This document shows, one piece after another, positions 15,001 through 21,000 of a DNA stretch of 64,000 bases. The stretch lies in assembly GCA_964478595.1 (NCBI GenBank), contig CAYZIN010000002.1:5855-69854 (forward strand), given 5' to 3'. Numbering within the stretch: the first letter of the stretch is position 1; every line of letters starts with the position of its first letter. This DNA comes from an uncultured Candidatus Saccharibacteria bacterium. GTDB taxonomy: Bacteria; Patescibacteriota; Saccharimonadia; UBA4664; CAZJNH01. Made by a program: the position numbers.

Positions 15001-18000
15001 CACTGCACTTGGCACCGCCGCCGGCCGAAGCGGCGCAAAGGGAGCGGCTCAGCTGGGAACGCGAACACCTGGGGCTTTATATTTCAAATCACCCGCTGGA
15101 TGAGTACACCAACTTTTTGTCGGCGGTTACGCGGCCAATTAAAACCATTACCACCGAACACGAAGGCCAGGTTGTTAGCTTGGGCGGCATTGTTACCGCC
15201 GTCCGTAAAATTGTCACCAAAAATAATGCGATGATGGCTTTTGTAACCATCGAAGATTTTTCTGGCTCGCTCGAATTAATAGTTTTTCCGAAAGCCTTCG
15301 AGCAATTTCCCGATGTTTTTCAAGTGGACCAAATCATTTTGGCTACAGGTAAAGTTTCCAGCAAAGACCGCGAGGGTAAAGTTGGCGGAGAACTTAAATT
15401 AATGCTCGATCGGGCCGAAGTGCTCGATCCCGAAAAAGCTCAAGCTACGCCCCAAGTCGGCGAGTCGCTAGCGACCGAAGCACCCAAAAACGAACCGCTA
15501 ACCCTAACGCTCGAAAGTTTCGCCAACACTGAACAGCTGGTTAAGCTCAAAGAGCTCTTGTCGAGTTATCCGGGCGAAAGCGAAGTGATTATCGACATAG
15601 AGGGCGAGGAGCACAAAAAAATTAAACTGCCGTTTAAGGTTGGTATCTCGTCGGAATTACTCGACGAATTGCGTGCATTGCTCGGCACTAGCCGCATTGG
15701 CACCACTAGCCCCTAGACTCCCACCCCTAGAATCTGTATACTACTCGGGTTATGCAACCAGCTGTTAAGGAATTTGCCGCCGCTTTTTCTAAGCCGGCGA
15801 TTCCTCAAGTTAAATCAGGCGACACCGTTCGCGTTCAGCAACTGATCCGCGAAGGCGGTAAACAACGCGTGCAGGCTTTTTCCGGCACTGTTATTCGGGT
15901 TCGCGCCATGGCTTCGCCAAATGCCTCAATCACCGTCCGCTGGATGGCCTCTGGGGTTGGCGTTGAAAAAACCATTTTGCTGCATTCGCCGCTCATTAAG
16001 AAAGTCGACATTATTAAGCGCGGTAAAGTCCGCCGCAATTATTTGACCTATTTACGCGGCCGCAGTGGCCGATCGGCTCGGTTGGTTGATCAAATTTTTG
16101 ATCGAGAAGCCGTAAATATCAAAGAAGAAGAGCCAGAAGTTGCCGCCCAAAAAGCCGAGGACGAAAAAGACGCCGAAATTACCGAACTGCCGACCGAAAA
16201 TTCAATCCAGCCAGATGAAAACCTAGAGCCGGAAGTTAGCGAAGAGAGCAAGGAGGCAGAATCTGACGAAGCTAAAGCTGATGTATCTGAGGAAAACGAC
16301 GAGCAAGAACTGCCGGCTGAAGAAGTACAAGAAAAGTTAGACAAAGCCGACGACGAAGACACCAACGCCCAGAAACCCAACGACTCGATTTAATTAGTTT
16401 CAAAAAAAACACGGCCCGAGTGCTATCCAGACTTGCTGGACGCACCCGAGCCGTTTTTGTGGGCAGGCCTACTTACTCGAACGAGTCGGCCTCCTTAGTT
16501 ACACGAGCCAAGTGGAGCGTGGCCCAGGCCTGCGCGTCCGCCAGGGCCAAAGCCTGGCACTCCGGATCATTGAGTGTCCACGAGCGAACGATGCCATTGA
16601 TGGCTTCTTGCTCGTAGTCGAGGTTCTTACCCTCGCGCTGGATCCGTTCAGCCTGTTCTTTACTATCTGCCATTCTCCCTCCTAGATTCCTCTTAGGGCG
16701 TCTTGCATGAACAGAATCGCGAACAGCTGCTGCACCGGCCGCTCGCCGCAGTTACCACACAGCTCACGCGGGTGGATGTGTGGATTGCGGGCAGCTGGCT
16801 CGTCGATGGTAGCGAGCAGGTCTCGCGCGATTGCGTAACCGAAGCAGCCGTAGATCGCCGTCGGGCAAATGCAGCATCGCCGTGTCATTCCTTGAGTGGC
16901 TGCTTGGCCAACTCACACCTCCGGTCGGGGTCCGTACAACTCAAGCGCGGCTTGCTCAACCTGCTCGCGGGTGATCGAAGGGTTGTCGATCGCCAGCTGC
17001 CCGTAGACCCAGCTGATCCGCTGGTCGTACTTCTCGCCAGGCGTCATGACGTGACCCTTAGCCGCCTCGAGCAAGCGTTTGAGCTCCTCACTCACCTCCA
17101 TGCTTGAGCGAATCCTCTTTCCCACCTCAACCTCCTTCAACGTCGTTCGCCGGCACAGAATTCAAGTAGCGCCTCGACGAAAAGGAACGCATCGATGATC
17201 GAGCACTGACCGCATCCCAACCCCAAGCCTTGTTCGTACTCCAGTCGATGGGCCTTGAAGTCGAGCTGGGACGGATTGAACCGGTGGCAGTTGTCGATTG
17301 CCCGCTGGTGCTCCGTTTGTAGGCGCAGGATGAGCATCTTCGGCGTGAACGAAAACTCGTAGTAGGTCGGGTTGAACTCCGGGAACCGAAGTTCCCGCTC
17401 GGCTACATCATTCGCCATTTCAGCCTCCTGCTAGGAGCGTTGGTTGGTGGGAATGTTCGCGCTGACGTTCGTGATGCTCTGCGTGCTTTTCCATGTCTAC
17501 GATCATCGCCCCGCAAGAGCATTCCATCATCACCACTGGGTCGCGATCGGCCACACGAGCAAAGCTTTGCTTGTGTTCGATCGTCAAGTCGTAGAAGTTC
17601 TTGTCGATGATACCGGCGGTTAGCAGGGATCGCAGCAACCGCTGGTACTTGGCCCACGGCATCTCCACATCGAGGTAGAGATGGTAGTGGCCGGGCGTCT
17701 TCGATGGGACCAGCCGAGCCGGAAAGTCGATGTCAATCACCGGCGCGTGCTTGCCGTTGTCGCACAGCGAGCTGGCGAGGTTCGCGTCTTCGCGCGGAAC
17801 GTTGCTGAGCTCTTCCCGCCGGTTGGTGTAATACCCACCCACTTTGTTCGATTTCCAGAACGTCCGCTTTGCCATCTCATCCTCCCTGTGGGGTGCGGAT
17901 TTCCAGAGGACCGTCGTGGTCTTCGGGGAAAGTCAGAAACACTTGTGCCCGGCACGCCAGGCAGGCATCTCGCCCGAGTGCCTCAGAGCTTAATACCATG

Positions 18001-21000
18001 CTGCTGACATGATCGTTCGGGCAGCGCCTCAAATGGGCGTCCCACCAACGATCCGGCCAGCCCCAGAATTCCGGTCCGCCTTCTTCAGCCGCCCTTCGTT
18101 TCAGCTCATTTACGAGCTCAGTCTGGTCTGCCACCTCAACCTCCTAATCTGAGACCGTAGATGTGCTTGCATCCGCAAATCTCATCATCTAACCCCATTC
18201 GATCATCTCCGAGCCCGATGACCACCCCGCACGGAAATTTCGGATGGTTATGGTGACAGTGCGGGCAGAGATCGTCCTGCTTTTTCATCATTCCATTCTC
18301 CCTAGTCGGCGAAGCGGGCGAACACGTCGACCATGATGTCGTTGCTGGCCGCCCACAAACTGAAGCAGGCGGGGTTGTGCACGTCGAGCTCAAATACCGT
18401 CGGCTCGACTTCACGCACCGGCCGCCAATCCTTTGGCATCATGGTGCCGAGCTCCAGCCGAACGCGTATGAAGTGCTGACCCTCCACAATCGGTTCTCCA
18501 CACCCCGGACACTTGTCCGGCTGCTTCTCGACGGGATCCGACCGGGTCTCGTACGCGCTATCTCCAGTCATCACGTCGTCCCAGAAACTCTCCGGTGCCA
18601 TCTCACCCTCCTCACTAGAAGGAAACCGATGTTGATGTGGTGTTTTGCACGTGCGTATCCCGGTAGTCGAGGTATGCGGGGCGGAATGTCCGACCGTCCA
18701 ACCGCCGAGCCAAAGCTCCGATTACGAGTTTCGCGTCGAGCTCAAGTGCAATCACGATCCGAGCCGTCGCGTCCATGCGCGGTATGCTCCCCGATTCGAT
18801 TCGACTCACAGTTGAAGATCCGACCTCGGCGTGGATAGCTAGATCGCCTTTCGTCCAGTGCTTCTTTTCCCGAGCTTGTTTCACTAGAGCTCCGAAAAAT
18901 TCGTTTTTCAAGTTGCGCCTCCCCGCTCGAACGATGGGGAAAGTATACCCTGTTGGCAAAATTTCTGCTAAGCTGCCTGGGCAAATGAAACGTCGAAGAA
19001 AACCAAACCACGTGCACACCAACTCGCTGATTGAGCGGGGTTACCGAATTGTGGTTGGAATTGATGAGGTGGGGCGGGGCAGTTTGGCTGGACCAGTCAC
19101 GGCCGCAGCGGTAATTTTGCCGACCGATATCAAGATTCGCGGAGCCAATGATTCCAAATTGCTTGACCCCTACGCCCGAGAAAAACTGGTCAAAAAAATT
19201 AAAGCCCAAGCCATGGCGATCGGCGTCGGGTGGGCCAGCCATACCGAAATCGACCAGTATGGGCTAACTTGGGCGGTGCGGGCGTCGGGCCTTCGTGCCT
19301 TGGCCGATATGGGATCCAAATACGATGCGGTCATTCTGGACGGCAAACACAATTATTTGAAAGGCCACTGCTACGCCGAGGCCGTCGTAAAAGGCGACCA
19401 GCGCTGCCTAAACGTGGCCTGCGCTTCGATTGTCGCCAAGGTGGCTCGGGATAACTATATGTACCGCATGCACGAGATTTATCCTAAATTCGGCTGGCTG
19501 ACCAACGTTGGTTACGCTACTAAGTCGCATCTCGAGGCCATGAAACGCGAGCTCTCACCCTTGCATCGCCGGCTCTTTACACCCGTAGCCAGGTTAAATC
19601 AAACCCAATTCGCAGAGTTCTATGAGCAAATCGGCGCCATCGAGTAGTGGCGCTATAGCCGAATCACAAGCGGCTGATTTTTTACTGAAACAAAAATTTA
19701 AAATTCTCGACCGGAACTGGAAGAATCGCTGGTGCGAGATCGATATCGTCGCCGAAAAACGAGGCATCATTCATTTTGTCGAGGTCAAATTTCGCAAGAC
19801 TTCCTTTTATGGGTCGGGTTTTGACTACATTGGCTCCGACAAACAGTCGCGGCTCAAACGGGCGGCCGAAATGTGGATGTTGGCGCATCGTCGAGCCGGT
19901 GATTATCAAATCGACGCCATCTCCATCACCGGCCAAGCGATCGAGTATTTGCCAAACGCCGTCGAAGGCTAGAAAATACCTTTATGGTTGATCCAAAAAC
20001 TTTACCTACAGGGTTCTTCGGTCAAGGCCCAGGAATTCCGAAAAACAACTTGTTCAGAGTCCGAAACGTGGCCACCTTGACAGCAACCCAAGAAAGAATA
20101 AAGGGAACAACCAACAATGGAGAGCAGGAATTTCTGGATGTTCTGATCTCTGAGCTGCAATACAAAAATATCTCTAGAGGAGGTGGTGGTTTCCGCGGCG
20201 GCGCCTTTCATGATTCTTTTTCATTTGGGCTAAAGGATGGCCGAAATTTTTATTTTCGATCAACAAAGTTCATTAGTCTGGATGAAGAAGCTTGGTATAA
20301 ATTTTTGGACGAAAAGGGCGTCCCTAACGGCATGTCACAGGCCGCCAAAAAAGATCTGAAAAAATCGGTTATTTTTATTGTGTTTGTTTTGCTTGGGATA
20401 GCTTTGTTTCTCCTACTTGATCCAAATACTTGGAGGCATTGATAAAAGTTGGCTCCTAAGTTACAATCGAAGCACTTACGAATCTGGCTTCCGCCGGATT
20501 TTTTGTTCAAAACAACTCAATAAGAAAGTACCCAAACTAAGATGCAAGAAAATTTCTATACTACTCTTGAGCAGATCGCTGAAGAGAAGAGTCTACCCTT
20601 AAAGATTATCGTTGAGACCGTTGAATCGGCGCTGGCCGCGGCTTACCGCAAAGATTTTGGCGACAAAGACCAGGAGGTTCGAGTTGAGCTCGACCCGAAA
20701 ACCGGTAAGACCAAGGTTTTTGTTAGTAAAACCGTGGTCAAAGAAGTCGAGAACGAACATCTCGAAATTTCGCTGGCGGACGCCAAGAAAATTAAGAAAA
20801 CCGCTAAACTCGAAGCTGTGGTTGAGATGGAAGTCACGCCGCCGGCCGACTTTGGGCGCGTAGCTGCTCAAACCGCCAAACAGGTGATCGTCCAGCGGTT
20901 AAGGGAAGCCGAGCGCGATATCATTATGACCGAGTTTAAGGATAAGGAAGACACGATTATAAACGGCACCGTCCAACGGGTAGAGCCGAACATTATCTTT

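What the first reader, a model, noticed from the sequence alone, without database searches (positions are those of the whole stretch)
16394..18984. GC-rich nine-gene small-protein operon headed by an XRE regulator, inserted precisely between rplS and rnhB
rplS and rnhB are normally adjacent or near-adjacent in Gram-positive-like gene orders. Here 2.6 kb of opposite-strand, noticeably GC-richer DNA sits between them. It carries nine tightly packed, translationally coupled genes (gaps of 1-8 nt or overlaps), each with a GGAGG-type RBS. The first encodes a Cro/cI-like XRE HTH; the others are 51-151-aa proteins with no recognisable family. Several are Cys/His-rich (CPGCG, CPHCHHNH...CGCKH, CPNDH...CLAC, CSCG...HAEHHERQREHSH) and one is Trp-rich. 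The block ends at a bidirectional terminator abutting rplS. This organisation is typical of phage early/moron regions or of compact defence/anti-defence or toxin-immunity modules. No integrase, att repeat or structural phage gene is present, so it may be a streamlined mobile cassette or a regulatory module of unknown function.
Basis: partly seen in the sequence, partly recalled or inferred. Interest (0 to 1): 0.75.

Follow-up and report, generated by a model that had tools for sequence, protein, structure and literature searches.

The report
Swappable small-gene cassette in a Saccharibacteria hotspot
A 2.6-kb block of nine tiny genes sits where two housekeeping genes of an ultra-small episymbiotic bacterium (Saccharibacteria/TM7) are normally adjacent; close relatives carry different small genes at the same spot behind the same promoter and terminator, so it is an old, actively maintained accessory "slot", not a fresh phage insert or a known defence system.

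Summary
Nine minus-strand ORFs (16473-18911) lie between rplS and rnhB. An XRE HTH gene comes first. GC is about 58% against 51% (GC3 0.70 against 0.57±0.06). A strong bidirectional terminator abuts rplS.

The host is a Saccharimonadia (TM7/CPR) bacterium. Three more distant relatives have rplS directly followed by rnhB, which are empty sites. Four closer relatives each have different content there.

Only two cassette genes have relatives:
- g5 (151 aa) belongs to a large uncharacterised family of more than 2,500 cluster representatives. It occurs in 130 cultured actinophages and 70 IMG/VR contigs, and its fold has no PDB match.
- g7 (70 aa) belongs to a family of about 1,175 proteins. In Bradyrhizobium its gene overlaps the start of a canonical Fic gene. 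No Fic gene is in the window.

Both genes recur in sister cassettes under purifying selection (dN/dS 0.10-0.37). g5 has diverged as much as rnhB, so the locus is old.

A new point: six small-gene units in five loci share a promoter/leader (TATAMT-TYYYCC-ATCGTT). Most also share a related terminator hairpin, although their genes are unrelated.

Best reading: a self-contained accessory cassette in an integration hotspot, probably XRE-controlled, built from a phage-like pool of small Cys/His-rich proteins. Function is inferred, not shown. PADLOC gave no hit beyond g1's generic HTH, and there is no integrase and no att or attC site.

The parts
15752..16393 (+). rplS (L19 with a long acidic C-terminal tail); left conserved flank
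   Evidence: ORF. It is 73% identical to the Ribosomal_L19 gene of L001. DNA synteny with L001 ends at 16377.
16402..16460 (.). Bidirectional intrinsic terminator: A8, hairpin, T5 on the + strand; hairpin then U8 on the - strand
   Evidence: Fold: dG -36.2, z -4.8 on the minus strand; -27.9, z -2.85 on the plus strand. Scan hit. The stem sequence AACGGCTCGGGTG...CACYCGAGCCGTT is conserved in L084 and L007, with a variant in L001. It is unique in the window.
16473..16673 (-). g9, 66 aa, acidic and helical; no relatives found
   Evidence: Public gene call with the same boundaries, singleton cluster. No family in Pfam, PHROG, PADLOC or NCBIfam.
16682..16888 (-). g8, 68 aa, CCxC...CxxC; the weakest gene call
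   Evidence: ORF. Weak, badly spaced SD and a 24-nt gap. Not called in public annotation. GC3 0.72 > GC2 0.49.
16913..17125 (-). g7, 70 aa, three-helix protein. Member of a family of about 1,175 proteins whose Bradyrhizobium members are encoded immediately upstream of Fic genes
   Evidence: Homologues: L001 57%, L084/L007 N-terminal half 40-50%, L006 47%. Family search. Fic adjacency in 6 of 6 places. AF2 pLDDT 86.5.
17137..17418 (-). g6, 93 aa, C..H...CxxC; no relatives found
17420..17875 (-). g5, 151 aa. N-terminal domain of about 105 aa from a large phage-borne family (invariant S36 H43 D48 D50 T60 H65 L66; G62, H63, W74 and Y77 nearly invariant). The Cys/His C-terminal tail is shared only with two CPR copies
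   Evidence: PHROG 10893 at 1.3e-14. 130 actinophage records. 2,500 representatives. 70 IMG/VR contigs. Orthologues L084 68% and L007 65%. dN/dS 0.10-0.15. AF2 pLDDT 87. No PDB fold match.
17877..18134 (-). g4, 85 aa, Trp-rich, C..H...CxxC; no relatives found
18136..18291 (-). g3, 51 aa, CxxCHH...CxCxH; no relatives found
   Evidence: Called in a Logan assembly only.
18302..18601 (-). g2, 99 aa, CPGC...HxxxC; no relatives found
18615..18911 (-). g1, 98-aa XRE/Cro-CI-type HTH protein, first gene of the unit
   Evidence: Pfam HTH_31 1.7e-9 and HTH_3 2.8e-5. PHROG repressor families. NCBIfam matches are all generic and below cut-off. No homologue in any of 255 fetched loci.
18926..18971 (-). Promoter-like site (TTAGCA-18 nt-TATACT, 18971..18942) plus the conserved leader CCCATCGTTCGAG (18938..18926), divergent from rnhB
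   Evidence: Scan. The motif TATAMT-TYYYCC-ATCGTT is shared by six small-gene units in the window, L084, L007 (twice), L001 and L004. It is unique in the window.
18985..19647 (+). rnhB (RNase HII); right conserved flank
   Evidence: PF01351 relatives named Saccharimonadales. DNA synteny resumes at 18997 (L001) and 18941 (L004).

Best explanation
The block is one filling of a hypervariable accessory slot (an integration or replacement hotspot). In one clade of Saccharimonadia this slot has opened between the ancestrally contiguous, co-directional rplS and rnhB genes. It looks like a self-contained transcription unit. A sigma-70-like promoter with a conserved leader fires divergently from rnhB. 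The first product, an XRE/Cro-type HTH protein, most likely represses its own promoter (inferred). Eight small, mostly Cys/His-rich proteins, probably zinc-binding, follow with tight translational coupling. A strong hairpin ends the unit and also terminates rplS. The cargo is mosaic and comes from a phage-like pool of small genes. g5 carries a widespread phage-borne domain with a His/Asp/Tyr constellation suggestive of metal binding. g7 is homologous to the small partner protein of Fic AMPylases. These two genes are the durable core, kept under purifying selection in sister cassettes, while the other genes are swapped. The conserved promoter/leader and terminator probably serve both as expression signals and as homology anchors for the replacement. 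The most likely role is in inter-genome conflict, with small protein inhibitors or modulators acting on phage, on a toxin such as Fic, or on the host bacterium. That role is inference. What is shown is the anatomy, the empty sites, the turnover, the selection, and the phage and Fic-partner family links.
For: Host identity. Empty sites in L082, L083 and L255. Different fillings in L004, L001, L084 and L254. Synteny break-points at 16377 and 18941/18997. Composition shift. XRE domain. Promoter and terminator. Promoter/leader shared by six units with unrelated first genes. That element is unique in the window. Terminator conserved. g5 family in phages. g5 and g7 recur together in L084 and L007, and g7 in L001. 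dN/dS is 0.10-0.15 (g5) and 0.13-0.37 (g7), and g5 dN matches rnhB dN for the same genome pair. g7-family genes overlap Fic genes in 6 of 6 Bradyrhizobium-type places, with the canonical HPFADGNGRTSR motif. Eight of nine ORFs are independently called.
Against: No expression or binding data exist; XRE autoregulation and the operon structure are inferred from sequence. Six of nine proteins have no detectable relatives, and my one broad search for them (the concatenated query) failed for a technical reason, so their orphan status is not established. No Fic gene is in the 64-kb window, and g7 lacks the canonical inhibitory (S/T)xxxE(G/N) motif, so an anti-Fic role is only a lead. The g5 fold matches nothing solved and no Pfam family, so 'metal-dependent enzyme' rests on invariant residues alone. 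Relatives are few and mostly on short contigs. Vertical inheritance with turnover cannot be fully separated from repeated insertion at a hotspot. Leader hairpins are not better than shuffles.
Confidence: 0.55

Rival explanations
1. It is a decaying remnant of the early (Cro-led) operon of a prophage that once integrated here. It has no present function and simply awaits deletion.
For: The layout (Cro-like HTH first, then many tiny coupled genes) resembles actinophage early arrays, where g5 relatives sit. The g5 family is phage-borne. GC is shifted.
Against: There is no integrase, att repeat or structural gene. All nine ORFs are intact with coding-type GC3. g5 and g7 are under purifying selection and are as old as the species split. 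The genome is reduced and would be expected to lose junk. The promoter and terminator are conserved across relatives with different cargo.
Confidence: 0.1
2. It is a recent horizontal acquisition from the actinobacterial host of the episymbiont or from that host's phages, in effect a moron carried across the symbiosis.
For: Cultured-phage hits of g5 are all actinophages (Mycobacterium, Gordonia, Microbacterium, Rhodococcus, Arthrobacter, Curtobacterium). Most IMG/VR loci carrying the family are 60-74% GC. The cassette is GC-richer than its genome. Some predicted Saccharibacteria phages are targeted by Actinobacteria spacers (PMC10746230).
Against: Only one of nine genes has actinophage relatives, at 31-46% identity. 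DNA similarity is limited to 111 nt. The other seven non-XRE proteins give no phage hit. g5 orthologues in two other CPR contigs share a private C-terminal tail and a divergence equal to rnhB, which points to long residence in this lineage.
Confidence: 0.12
3. It is a toxin-antitoxin, abortive-infection or other defence module. In this reading the XRE protein (and/or g7) is the antitoxin or sensor, and one of the small proteins is the toxin or effector.
For: XRE HTH proteins are common antitoxins and defence regulators. Weak PADLOC and NCBIfam similarities of g1 to RmrA, capH and HipB-like HTH models exist. The g7 family pairs with Fic in alpha-proteobacteria. The locus is variable like a defence island.
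Against: No PADLOC model matches any of the eight non-HTH proteins. The g1 matches are generic HTH and below cut-offs. No Fic or other recognisable toxin is in the cassette or window. Sister cassettes lack the XRE.
Confidence: 0.15
4. It is an integron-like or otherwise site-specific cassette array.
For: Units are bounded by conserved sequences, two units lie in tandem in L007, and cargo is unrelated between genomes.
Against: No integrase or other recombinase gene lies in or next to the block. The hairpins are plain GC-rich stems followed by U-runs, which is terminator-like, and do not fit the attC R''/R' cores as I recall them. Each unit brings its own promoter, unlike integron cassettes.
Confidence: 0.05

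Closest known systems
Chromosomal integration hotspots / plasticity zones between conserved core genes
   Same: Conserved flanks (dnaE-rplS and rnhB-yraN-nusA) with empty sites in some relatives and different accessory content in others.
   Different: The locus is very small (2.6 kb) and lies in a reduced CPR genome. No integrase or tRNA is involved. The variable units share their own promoter/leader and terminator, which is not a usual feature of hotspots.
Early / non-structural small-gene arrays of actinobacteriophages (and phage morons)
   Same: Strings of 50-150-aa genes with overlapping stop/start and strong SD. The g5 family sits in exactly such arrays next to replication genes. A Cro-like HTH comes first.
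   Different: It is not in a phage genome. Only g5 has phage relatives. It is conserved and under selection in a bacterial chromosome.
Class I Fic toxin-antitoxin modules (VbhT/VbhA, FicT/FicA)
   Same: Relatives of g7 are about 70-aa proteins encoded immediately upstream of, and overlapping, a Fic gene with the canonical HxFx(D/E)GNGRxxR motif. This is the class I arrangement described in PMC3667792.
   Different: The window has no Fic partner. The (S/T)xxxE(G/N) inhibitory motif is absent; the family has SxxxG(N/Q). There is no sequence or fold match to VbhA.
XRE/Cro-CI-regulated accessory operons (phage immunity regions, XRE-headed defence or TA operons)
   Same: A small HTH_31/HTH_3 protein is the first gene, directly behind the promoter.
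   Different: There is no recognisable partner such as a peptidase, toxin or cI/cro pair. Sister cassettes use the same promoter without any XRE gene.

Membership tests
XRE / Cro-CI helix-turn-helix regulators | HTH_3/HTH_31-type DNA-binding domain above the family threshold | tested here: met
   g1: HTH_31 at 38.3 bits (cut-off 27) and HTH_3 at 24.5 bits (cut-off 23).
XRE / Cro-CI helix-turn-helix regulators | Binds an operator at its own promoter | not testable with these tools
   The only candidate is an imperfect palindrome over the -35 box (TTAGCAGAAATTTTGCCAA), read. L004, which has no XRE gene, has only a partly similar stretch there (TTTCTG and flanking bases).
Integrated prophage or prophage remnant | Integrase/recombinase, att direct repeats, structural or lysis genes | tested here: not met
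   No such ORFs lie between dnaE and nusA. No flanking repeats beyond chance. Only g5 hits PHROGs, and both families are of unknown function.
Chromosomal integration hotspot / plasticity zone | Same conserved flanking genes, empty in some relatives, different content in others | tested here: met
   Empty: L082, L083, L255. Filled differently: window, L004, L001, L084, L254.
Integron cassette array | IntI tyrosine recombinase with attI, and attC sites bounding promoter-less cassettes | tested here: not met
   No recombinase is adjacent. The boundaries are a promoter/leader and U-tailed GC hairpins. The rest of the window was not scanned for IntI.
Class I Fic antitoxin (VbhA/FicA type) | Encoded immediately upstream of a Fic gene | tested here: not met
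   Met for the Bradyrhizobium-type homologues (6 of 6 places). Not met for g7: no Fic motif anywhere in the window.
Class I Fic antitoxin (VbhA/FicA type) | Inhibitory helix with (S/T)xxxE(G/N) and the conserved glutamate (PMC3667792) | tested here: not met
   The family consensus is QRRSFVYGN and g7 has QRISWVYGQ, with Gly where Glu is expected.
Class I Fic antitoxin (VbhA/FicA type) | Sequence or fold similarity to solved antitoxins | tested here: inconclusive
Known anti-phage defence systems (PADLOC-DB 2.0) | Match of component proteins to system models | tested here: not met
   Only generic HTH matches of g1 (RmrA models, best 7.2e-5; capH 0.02). The other eight proteins gave none.
HUH endonucleases (Rep / relaxase / Y1 transposase), considered for g5 | HUH motif plus catalytic Tyr on a ferredoxin-like HUH fold | tested here: not met
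Archaeo-eukaryotic primase-like domains, considered for g5 | DxD and sGxGxH motifs on the AEP fold; profile match | tested here: not met
   Only 2 of 80 family members hit PF24387 weakly, at E 0.049. No fold match.
PHROG 10893 / 18245 (phage protein families of unknown function) | Profile match over the conserved domain | tested here: met
   g5: 1.3e-14 and 1.3e-11, residues about 30-108.

The most novel reading that the evidence does not exclude
The rplS-rnhB slot may be an integrase-free cassette-exchange platform. In this reading a portable promoter/leader (TATAMT-TYYYCC-ATCGTTCGAG) and a conserved hairpin terminator bracket interchangeable sets of small zinc-binding, phage-derived proteins and act as recombination anchors. 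The cargo (the g5 enzyme-like domain, the orphan Fic-partner g7 and others) would then be used by the episymbiont to manipulate its actinobacterial host or shared phages, rather than for its own housekeeping.
Probability: 0.12. Interest if true: 0.8.

Novelty: new variant of a known kind. Interest (0 to 1): 0.45.

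Why it matters
Saccharibacteria and other CPR bacteria have tiny genomes and live on other bacteria, so genes they keep are likely to matter. 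This work shows three things. One clade maintains a fixed, promoter-equipped slot in which small phage-type genes are kept and exchanged. A very large phage-borne domain family (g5, more than 2,500 cluster representatives, no solved fold) is under selection in a cellular genome. An unannotated family of about 1,175 small partners of Fic enzymes exists, with orphan copies in CPR bacteria. Each gives a concrete handle for experiments on how episymbionts, their actinobacterial hosts and phages interact, and on what the many unnamed early genes of actinophages do. If the cassette turns out to be inert, the finding is an ordinary variable island.

Tried and rejected
1. A genome-contig scan with rplS as a single protein found nothing.
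2. I concatenated seven cassette proteins into one query. This worked for tblastn against phages (no hit) and plasmids (only g7). It failed in the search for homologous proteins, where word-based candidate selection was swamped. That result is not evidence that the proteins are orphans, and it cost one capped search.
3. The look-up of encoding contigs does not hold the window's own contig.
5. The g7 model gave only non-specific helical hits.
6. Profile searches of g7 against PDB sequences gave nothing.
7. The full 22-nt promoter/leader pattern is absent from IMG/VR. A shorter 14-specified-base pattern gave only single hits per contig; none can carry the adjacent TATAMT box, since the full pattern found nothing.
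8. Single-protein scans of IMG/VR with g2, g6 and g4 found no relatives.
9. The metagenome scan with the three CPR g5 copies found only relatives at 59% identity or less over short segments (at most 46% over the whole domain), and no further sister cassette.
10. Considered and rejected: HUH endonuclease and AEP primase for g5, integron, intact prophage, and a known defence system.
11. SD-sequestering leader hairpins were examined but are no better than shuffled sequence.

Full report
**1. What is there**

On the minus strand between rplS (15752-16393, +) and rnhB (18985-19647, +) lie nine ORFs:

| Gene | Coordinates | Length |
|---|---|---|
| g1 | 18615-18911 | 98 aa, TTG start |
| g2 | 18302-18601 | 99 aa |
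| g3 | 18136-18291 | 51 aa |
| g4 | 17877-18134 | 85 aa |
| g5 | 17420-17875 | 151 aa |
| g6 | 17137-17418 | 93 aa |
| g7 | 16913-17125 | 70 aa, GTG start |
| g8 | 16682-16888 | 68 aa |
| g9 | 16473-16673 | 66 aa |

- Gaps between successive genes are 13, 10, 1, 1, 1, 11, 24 and 8 nt.
- Eight genes have a strong GGAGG-type SD. g8 has only AAGGA, placed against its ATG.
- Eight of the nine ORFs, with exactly these ends, are gene calls in public collections, on a 70,205-bp NCBI contig and in Logan assemblies. Each is a singleton at 90% identity. g8 is not called.
- All nine ORFs have GC3 > GC2. Pooled cassette GC3 is 0.70, against 0.566 +/- 0.058 for 38 other long ORFs of the window.
- GC is 0.55-0.62 across the block against about 0.51 elsewhere.
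- A promoter-like site (TTAGCA, 18 nt, TATACT; 18971..18942) precedes g1.
- After g9 there is a hairpin with dG -36.2 kcal/mol (z -4.8) followed by U8. On the other strand the same hairpin (dG -27.9, z -2.85) is followed by U5 directly after the rplS stop.
- No att-like repeats flank the block.

**2. Whose genome, and is it an insertion?**

RNase HII relatives are named Saccharimonadales, Saccharimonadia or Saccharibacteria, so the window is from a TM7/CPR bacterium.

Three relatives have dnaE-rplS-rnhB with only 167, 18 and 53 nt between rplS and rnhB. Their rnhB identities are 63% (L082), 59% (L083) and 60% (L255). These are empty sites, and adjacency is the ancestral state.

Closer relatives all differ from the window and from each other:
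- L004 (85%) has an HD-like gene of more than 213 aa, divergent from rnhB.
- L001 (81%) has rplS, four small minus-strand genes (69, 155, 90 and 119 aa), guaA, an NTPase, then rnhB.
- L084 (72%) has a 96-aa membrane protein, a 151-aa gene, a 76-aa gene, a 48-aa gene and a terminator.
- L254 (71%) has unrelated same-strand genes.

DNA synteny with the window stops at 16377 on the left. On the right it resumes at 18997 (L001) or 18941 (L004). Other intergenic positions of the same conserved gene string also hold different inserts in different genomes: a Y1 transposase, a fatty-acid desaturase, M1 and M13 peptidases, and a low-GC 152-aa ORF in the window. The locus is a hotspot, not a one-off insertion.

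**3. What the proteins are**

- **g1** is an XRE/Cro-CI HTH protein (HTH_31 1.7e-9). Its NCBIfam and PADLOC matches are generic HTH and below cut-off.
- **g5** matches PHROG 10893 (1.3e-14) and 18245, both of unknown function.
  - tblastn finds it in 130 cultured actinophage genomes at 31-46% identity, always annotated as hypothetical.
  - It sits in long arrays of small genes near replication functions.
  - An exhaustive HMMER search gives 2,500 cluster representatives at E <= 1e-3, of which 1,225 are at E <= 1e-10.
  - 70 IMG/VR contigs carry it, and most of those are 60-74% GC.
  - It also occurs singly in a chromosome whose neighbouring genes are housekeeping ones.
  - The conserved part is residues 3-108. 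S36, H43, D48, D50, T60, H65 and L66 are invariant, and G62, H63, W74 and Y77 are nearly so.
  - The Cys/His tail (110-151) is shared only with two other CPR copies.
  - The HYH/Tyr and DxD motifs suggested an HUH nuclease or an AEP primase. Neither passes a fold or profile test.
- **g7** has homologues in L001 (57%), in L084 and L007 (N-terminal half, 40-50%) and in a Hyphomicrobiales MAG (47%).
  - A profile search finds 1,175 proteins. Most are about 70 aa and unannotated, and the hits that carry a name are from Bradyrhizobium.
  - In all six places examined, the gene lies directly upstream of a Fic gene; in the intact loci it overlaps by 4 nt the start of a 222-aa Fic gene (PF02661, motif HPFADGNGRTSR). 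That is the class I Fic toxin-antitoxin layout (PMC3667792).
  - The family has SxxxG(N/Q) where the inhibitory (S/T)xxxE(G/N) motif would be expected.
  - There is no sequence or fold link to VbhA, and the window has no Fic motif at all.
- **g2, g3, g4, g6, g8 and g9** match nothing in Pfam, PHROGs, PADLOC, NCBIfam, cultured phages or plasmids. g2, g4 and g6 were also scanned singly against IMG/VR, with no hit. A proper deep search for these six was not achieved, because one search failed technically.
- Five of those six (all but g9), plus the g5 tail, carry CxxC/His pairs typical of small zinc-binding proteins. This is read directly from the sequences.

**4. Sister cassettes and age**

- g5 and a g7-like gene recur together in L084, at the same rnhB-proximal site, and in L007. 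g7 recurs in L001. All other genes in those units are unrelated to the window's genes and also have no family.
- g5 is under purifying selection, with dN/dS 0.10-0.15. g7 gives 0.13-0.37. For comparison, rplS gives 0.13 and rnhB 0.06-0.10. dS is near saturation.
- g5 dN between the window and L084 is 0.212, and rnhB dN for the same pair is 0.214. This is what co-divergence since the species split would give.
- DNA similarity to any cultured phage is limited to 111 nt inside g5.
- The locus is therefore old, and its core is maintained.

**5.

Six small-gene units have the same -10 box and downstream sequence, TATAMT-TYYYCC-ATCGTT(CGAG), in front of unrelated first genes. The units are the window's, L084's, two in tandem in L007, L001's (there placed after the guaA terminator, not next to rnhB) and, more weakly, L004's. 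The first genes are an XRE, a membrane protein, zinc-ribbon proteins and an HD-like protein.

The element occurs once in the window. The full 22-nt pattern is absent from IMG/VR.

The terminator stem AACGGCTCGGGTG...CACYCGAGCCGTT is likewise conserved in the window, L084 and L007, and a variant is present in L001. The boundaries are thus more conserved than the cargo. That fits selection on a common regulatory element, replacement of cargo by recombination between the conserved ends, or both.

**6. How it most likely works**

Shown:
- A compact unit with a promoter-like site, an HTH first gene, tight coupling and a strong terminator.
- An insertion relative to the ancestral order.
- Cargo turnover around a conserved g5/g7 core under selection.
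- A phage-family link for g5 and a Fic-partner-family link for g7.

Inferred:
- g1 represses the unit from an operator at its own promoter.
- The small Cys/His proteins bind zinc and act as protein or nucleic-acid binders.
- g5 is a metal-dependent enzyme.
- g7 binds a Fic-type enzyme encoded elsewhere, in the cell, its host or a phage.
- The whole unit serves in conflict with phages or in dealing with the host bacterium.

I put about 0.55 on the structural and evolutionary reading, and much less on any specific biochemical role.

**7. Rivals**

| Rival reading | Confidence | Main evidence against |
|---|---|---|
| Inert prophage remnant | 0.10 | Intact ORFs, purifying selection, conserved signals |
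| Recent transfer from actinobacteria or their phages | 0.12 | Only one gene is shared, at low identity; divergence equals that of rnhB; the CPR copies have a private tail |
| TA or defence module | 0.15 | No known system, no recognisable toxin, and sister units have no XRE |
| Integron-like array | 0.05 | No recombinase, terminator-type hairpins, and each unit has its own promoter |

**8. Novelty and score**

Integration hotspots and phage-like small-gene islands are well known. What is unusual here is the setting in a reduced episymbiont genome and the promoter/leader and terminator shared by exchangeable cargo. The orphan Fic-partner homologue and the retention of a very large, structurally unmatched phage domain family are also unusual. 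I rate it a new variant of a known kind, with interest 0.45.

Noticed in passing
window 19984-20442 (+): A 152-aa ORF with a C-terminal transmembrane segment lies in a low-GC stretch (0.39-0.44) between yraN and nusA. It is absent from L001 and has no family in NCBIfam. This is another variable slot in the same conserved gene string.
   Followed up: partly
L085-L089 and L006 (Bradyrhizobium/Hyphomicrobiales loci): An unannotated family of 70-aa proteins (about 1,175 members) is encoded directly upstream of a canonical Fic gene, overlapping a 222-aa Fic gene by 4 nt in the intact loci. It looks like a class I Fic toxin-antitoxin pair, but the small protein has SFVYGN where the inhibitory (S/T)xxxE(G/N) motif is expected. 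In L006 the Fic gene is split by an in-frame stop.
   Followed up: partly
L001 7782-8348: A Y1 (IS200/IS605- or REP-associated-type) transposase gene is inserted between rnhB and yraN in the 81%-related genome. It is absent from the window.
   Followed up: no
proteins P0122, P0123: Some members of the g5 family carry two tandem copies of the domain. Others (P0174, P0177, P0125) have long coiled-coil-like N-terminal extensions. None matched a Pfam family above its cut-off.
   Followed up: partly
window 15752-16393 and L001 2589-3227: Ribosomal protein L19 carries an acidic C-terminal extension of about 100 aa (E/D/K-rich) in this clade. The 200-220-aa L19 genes of L082, L083 and L255 suggest the extension is shared more widely.
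   Followed up: no
L133 (Methylobacterium indicum plasmid pVL1_2, 47994-48164): A g7-like segment lies inside a 120-aa hypothetical protein, within a long array of small same-strand hypothetical genes on a 128-kb plasmid. This is another small-gene array context for the family.
   Followed up: no
L007 2681-2703 and L084 1-30: Two cassette-bearing contigs from the same sample (SRR18218240) share a short sequence beyond their terminators (GACCCTGTACAG..AGGGAAATT). This hints at a common flank that is not rplS-like. Both contigs are too short to resolve it.
   Followed up: no
window 60000-64000: GC rises steadily to 0.59 at the right end of the window, as high as in the cassette. I did not examine this region.
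   Followed up: no
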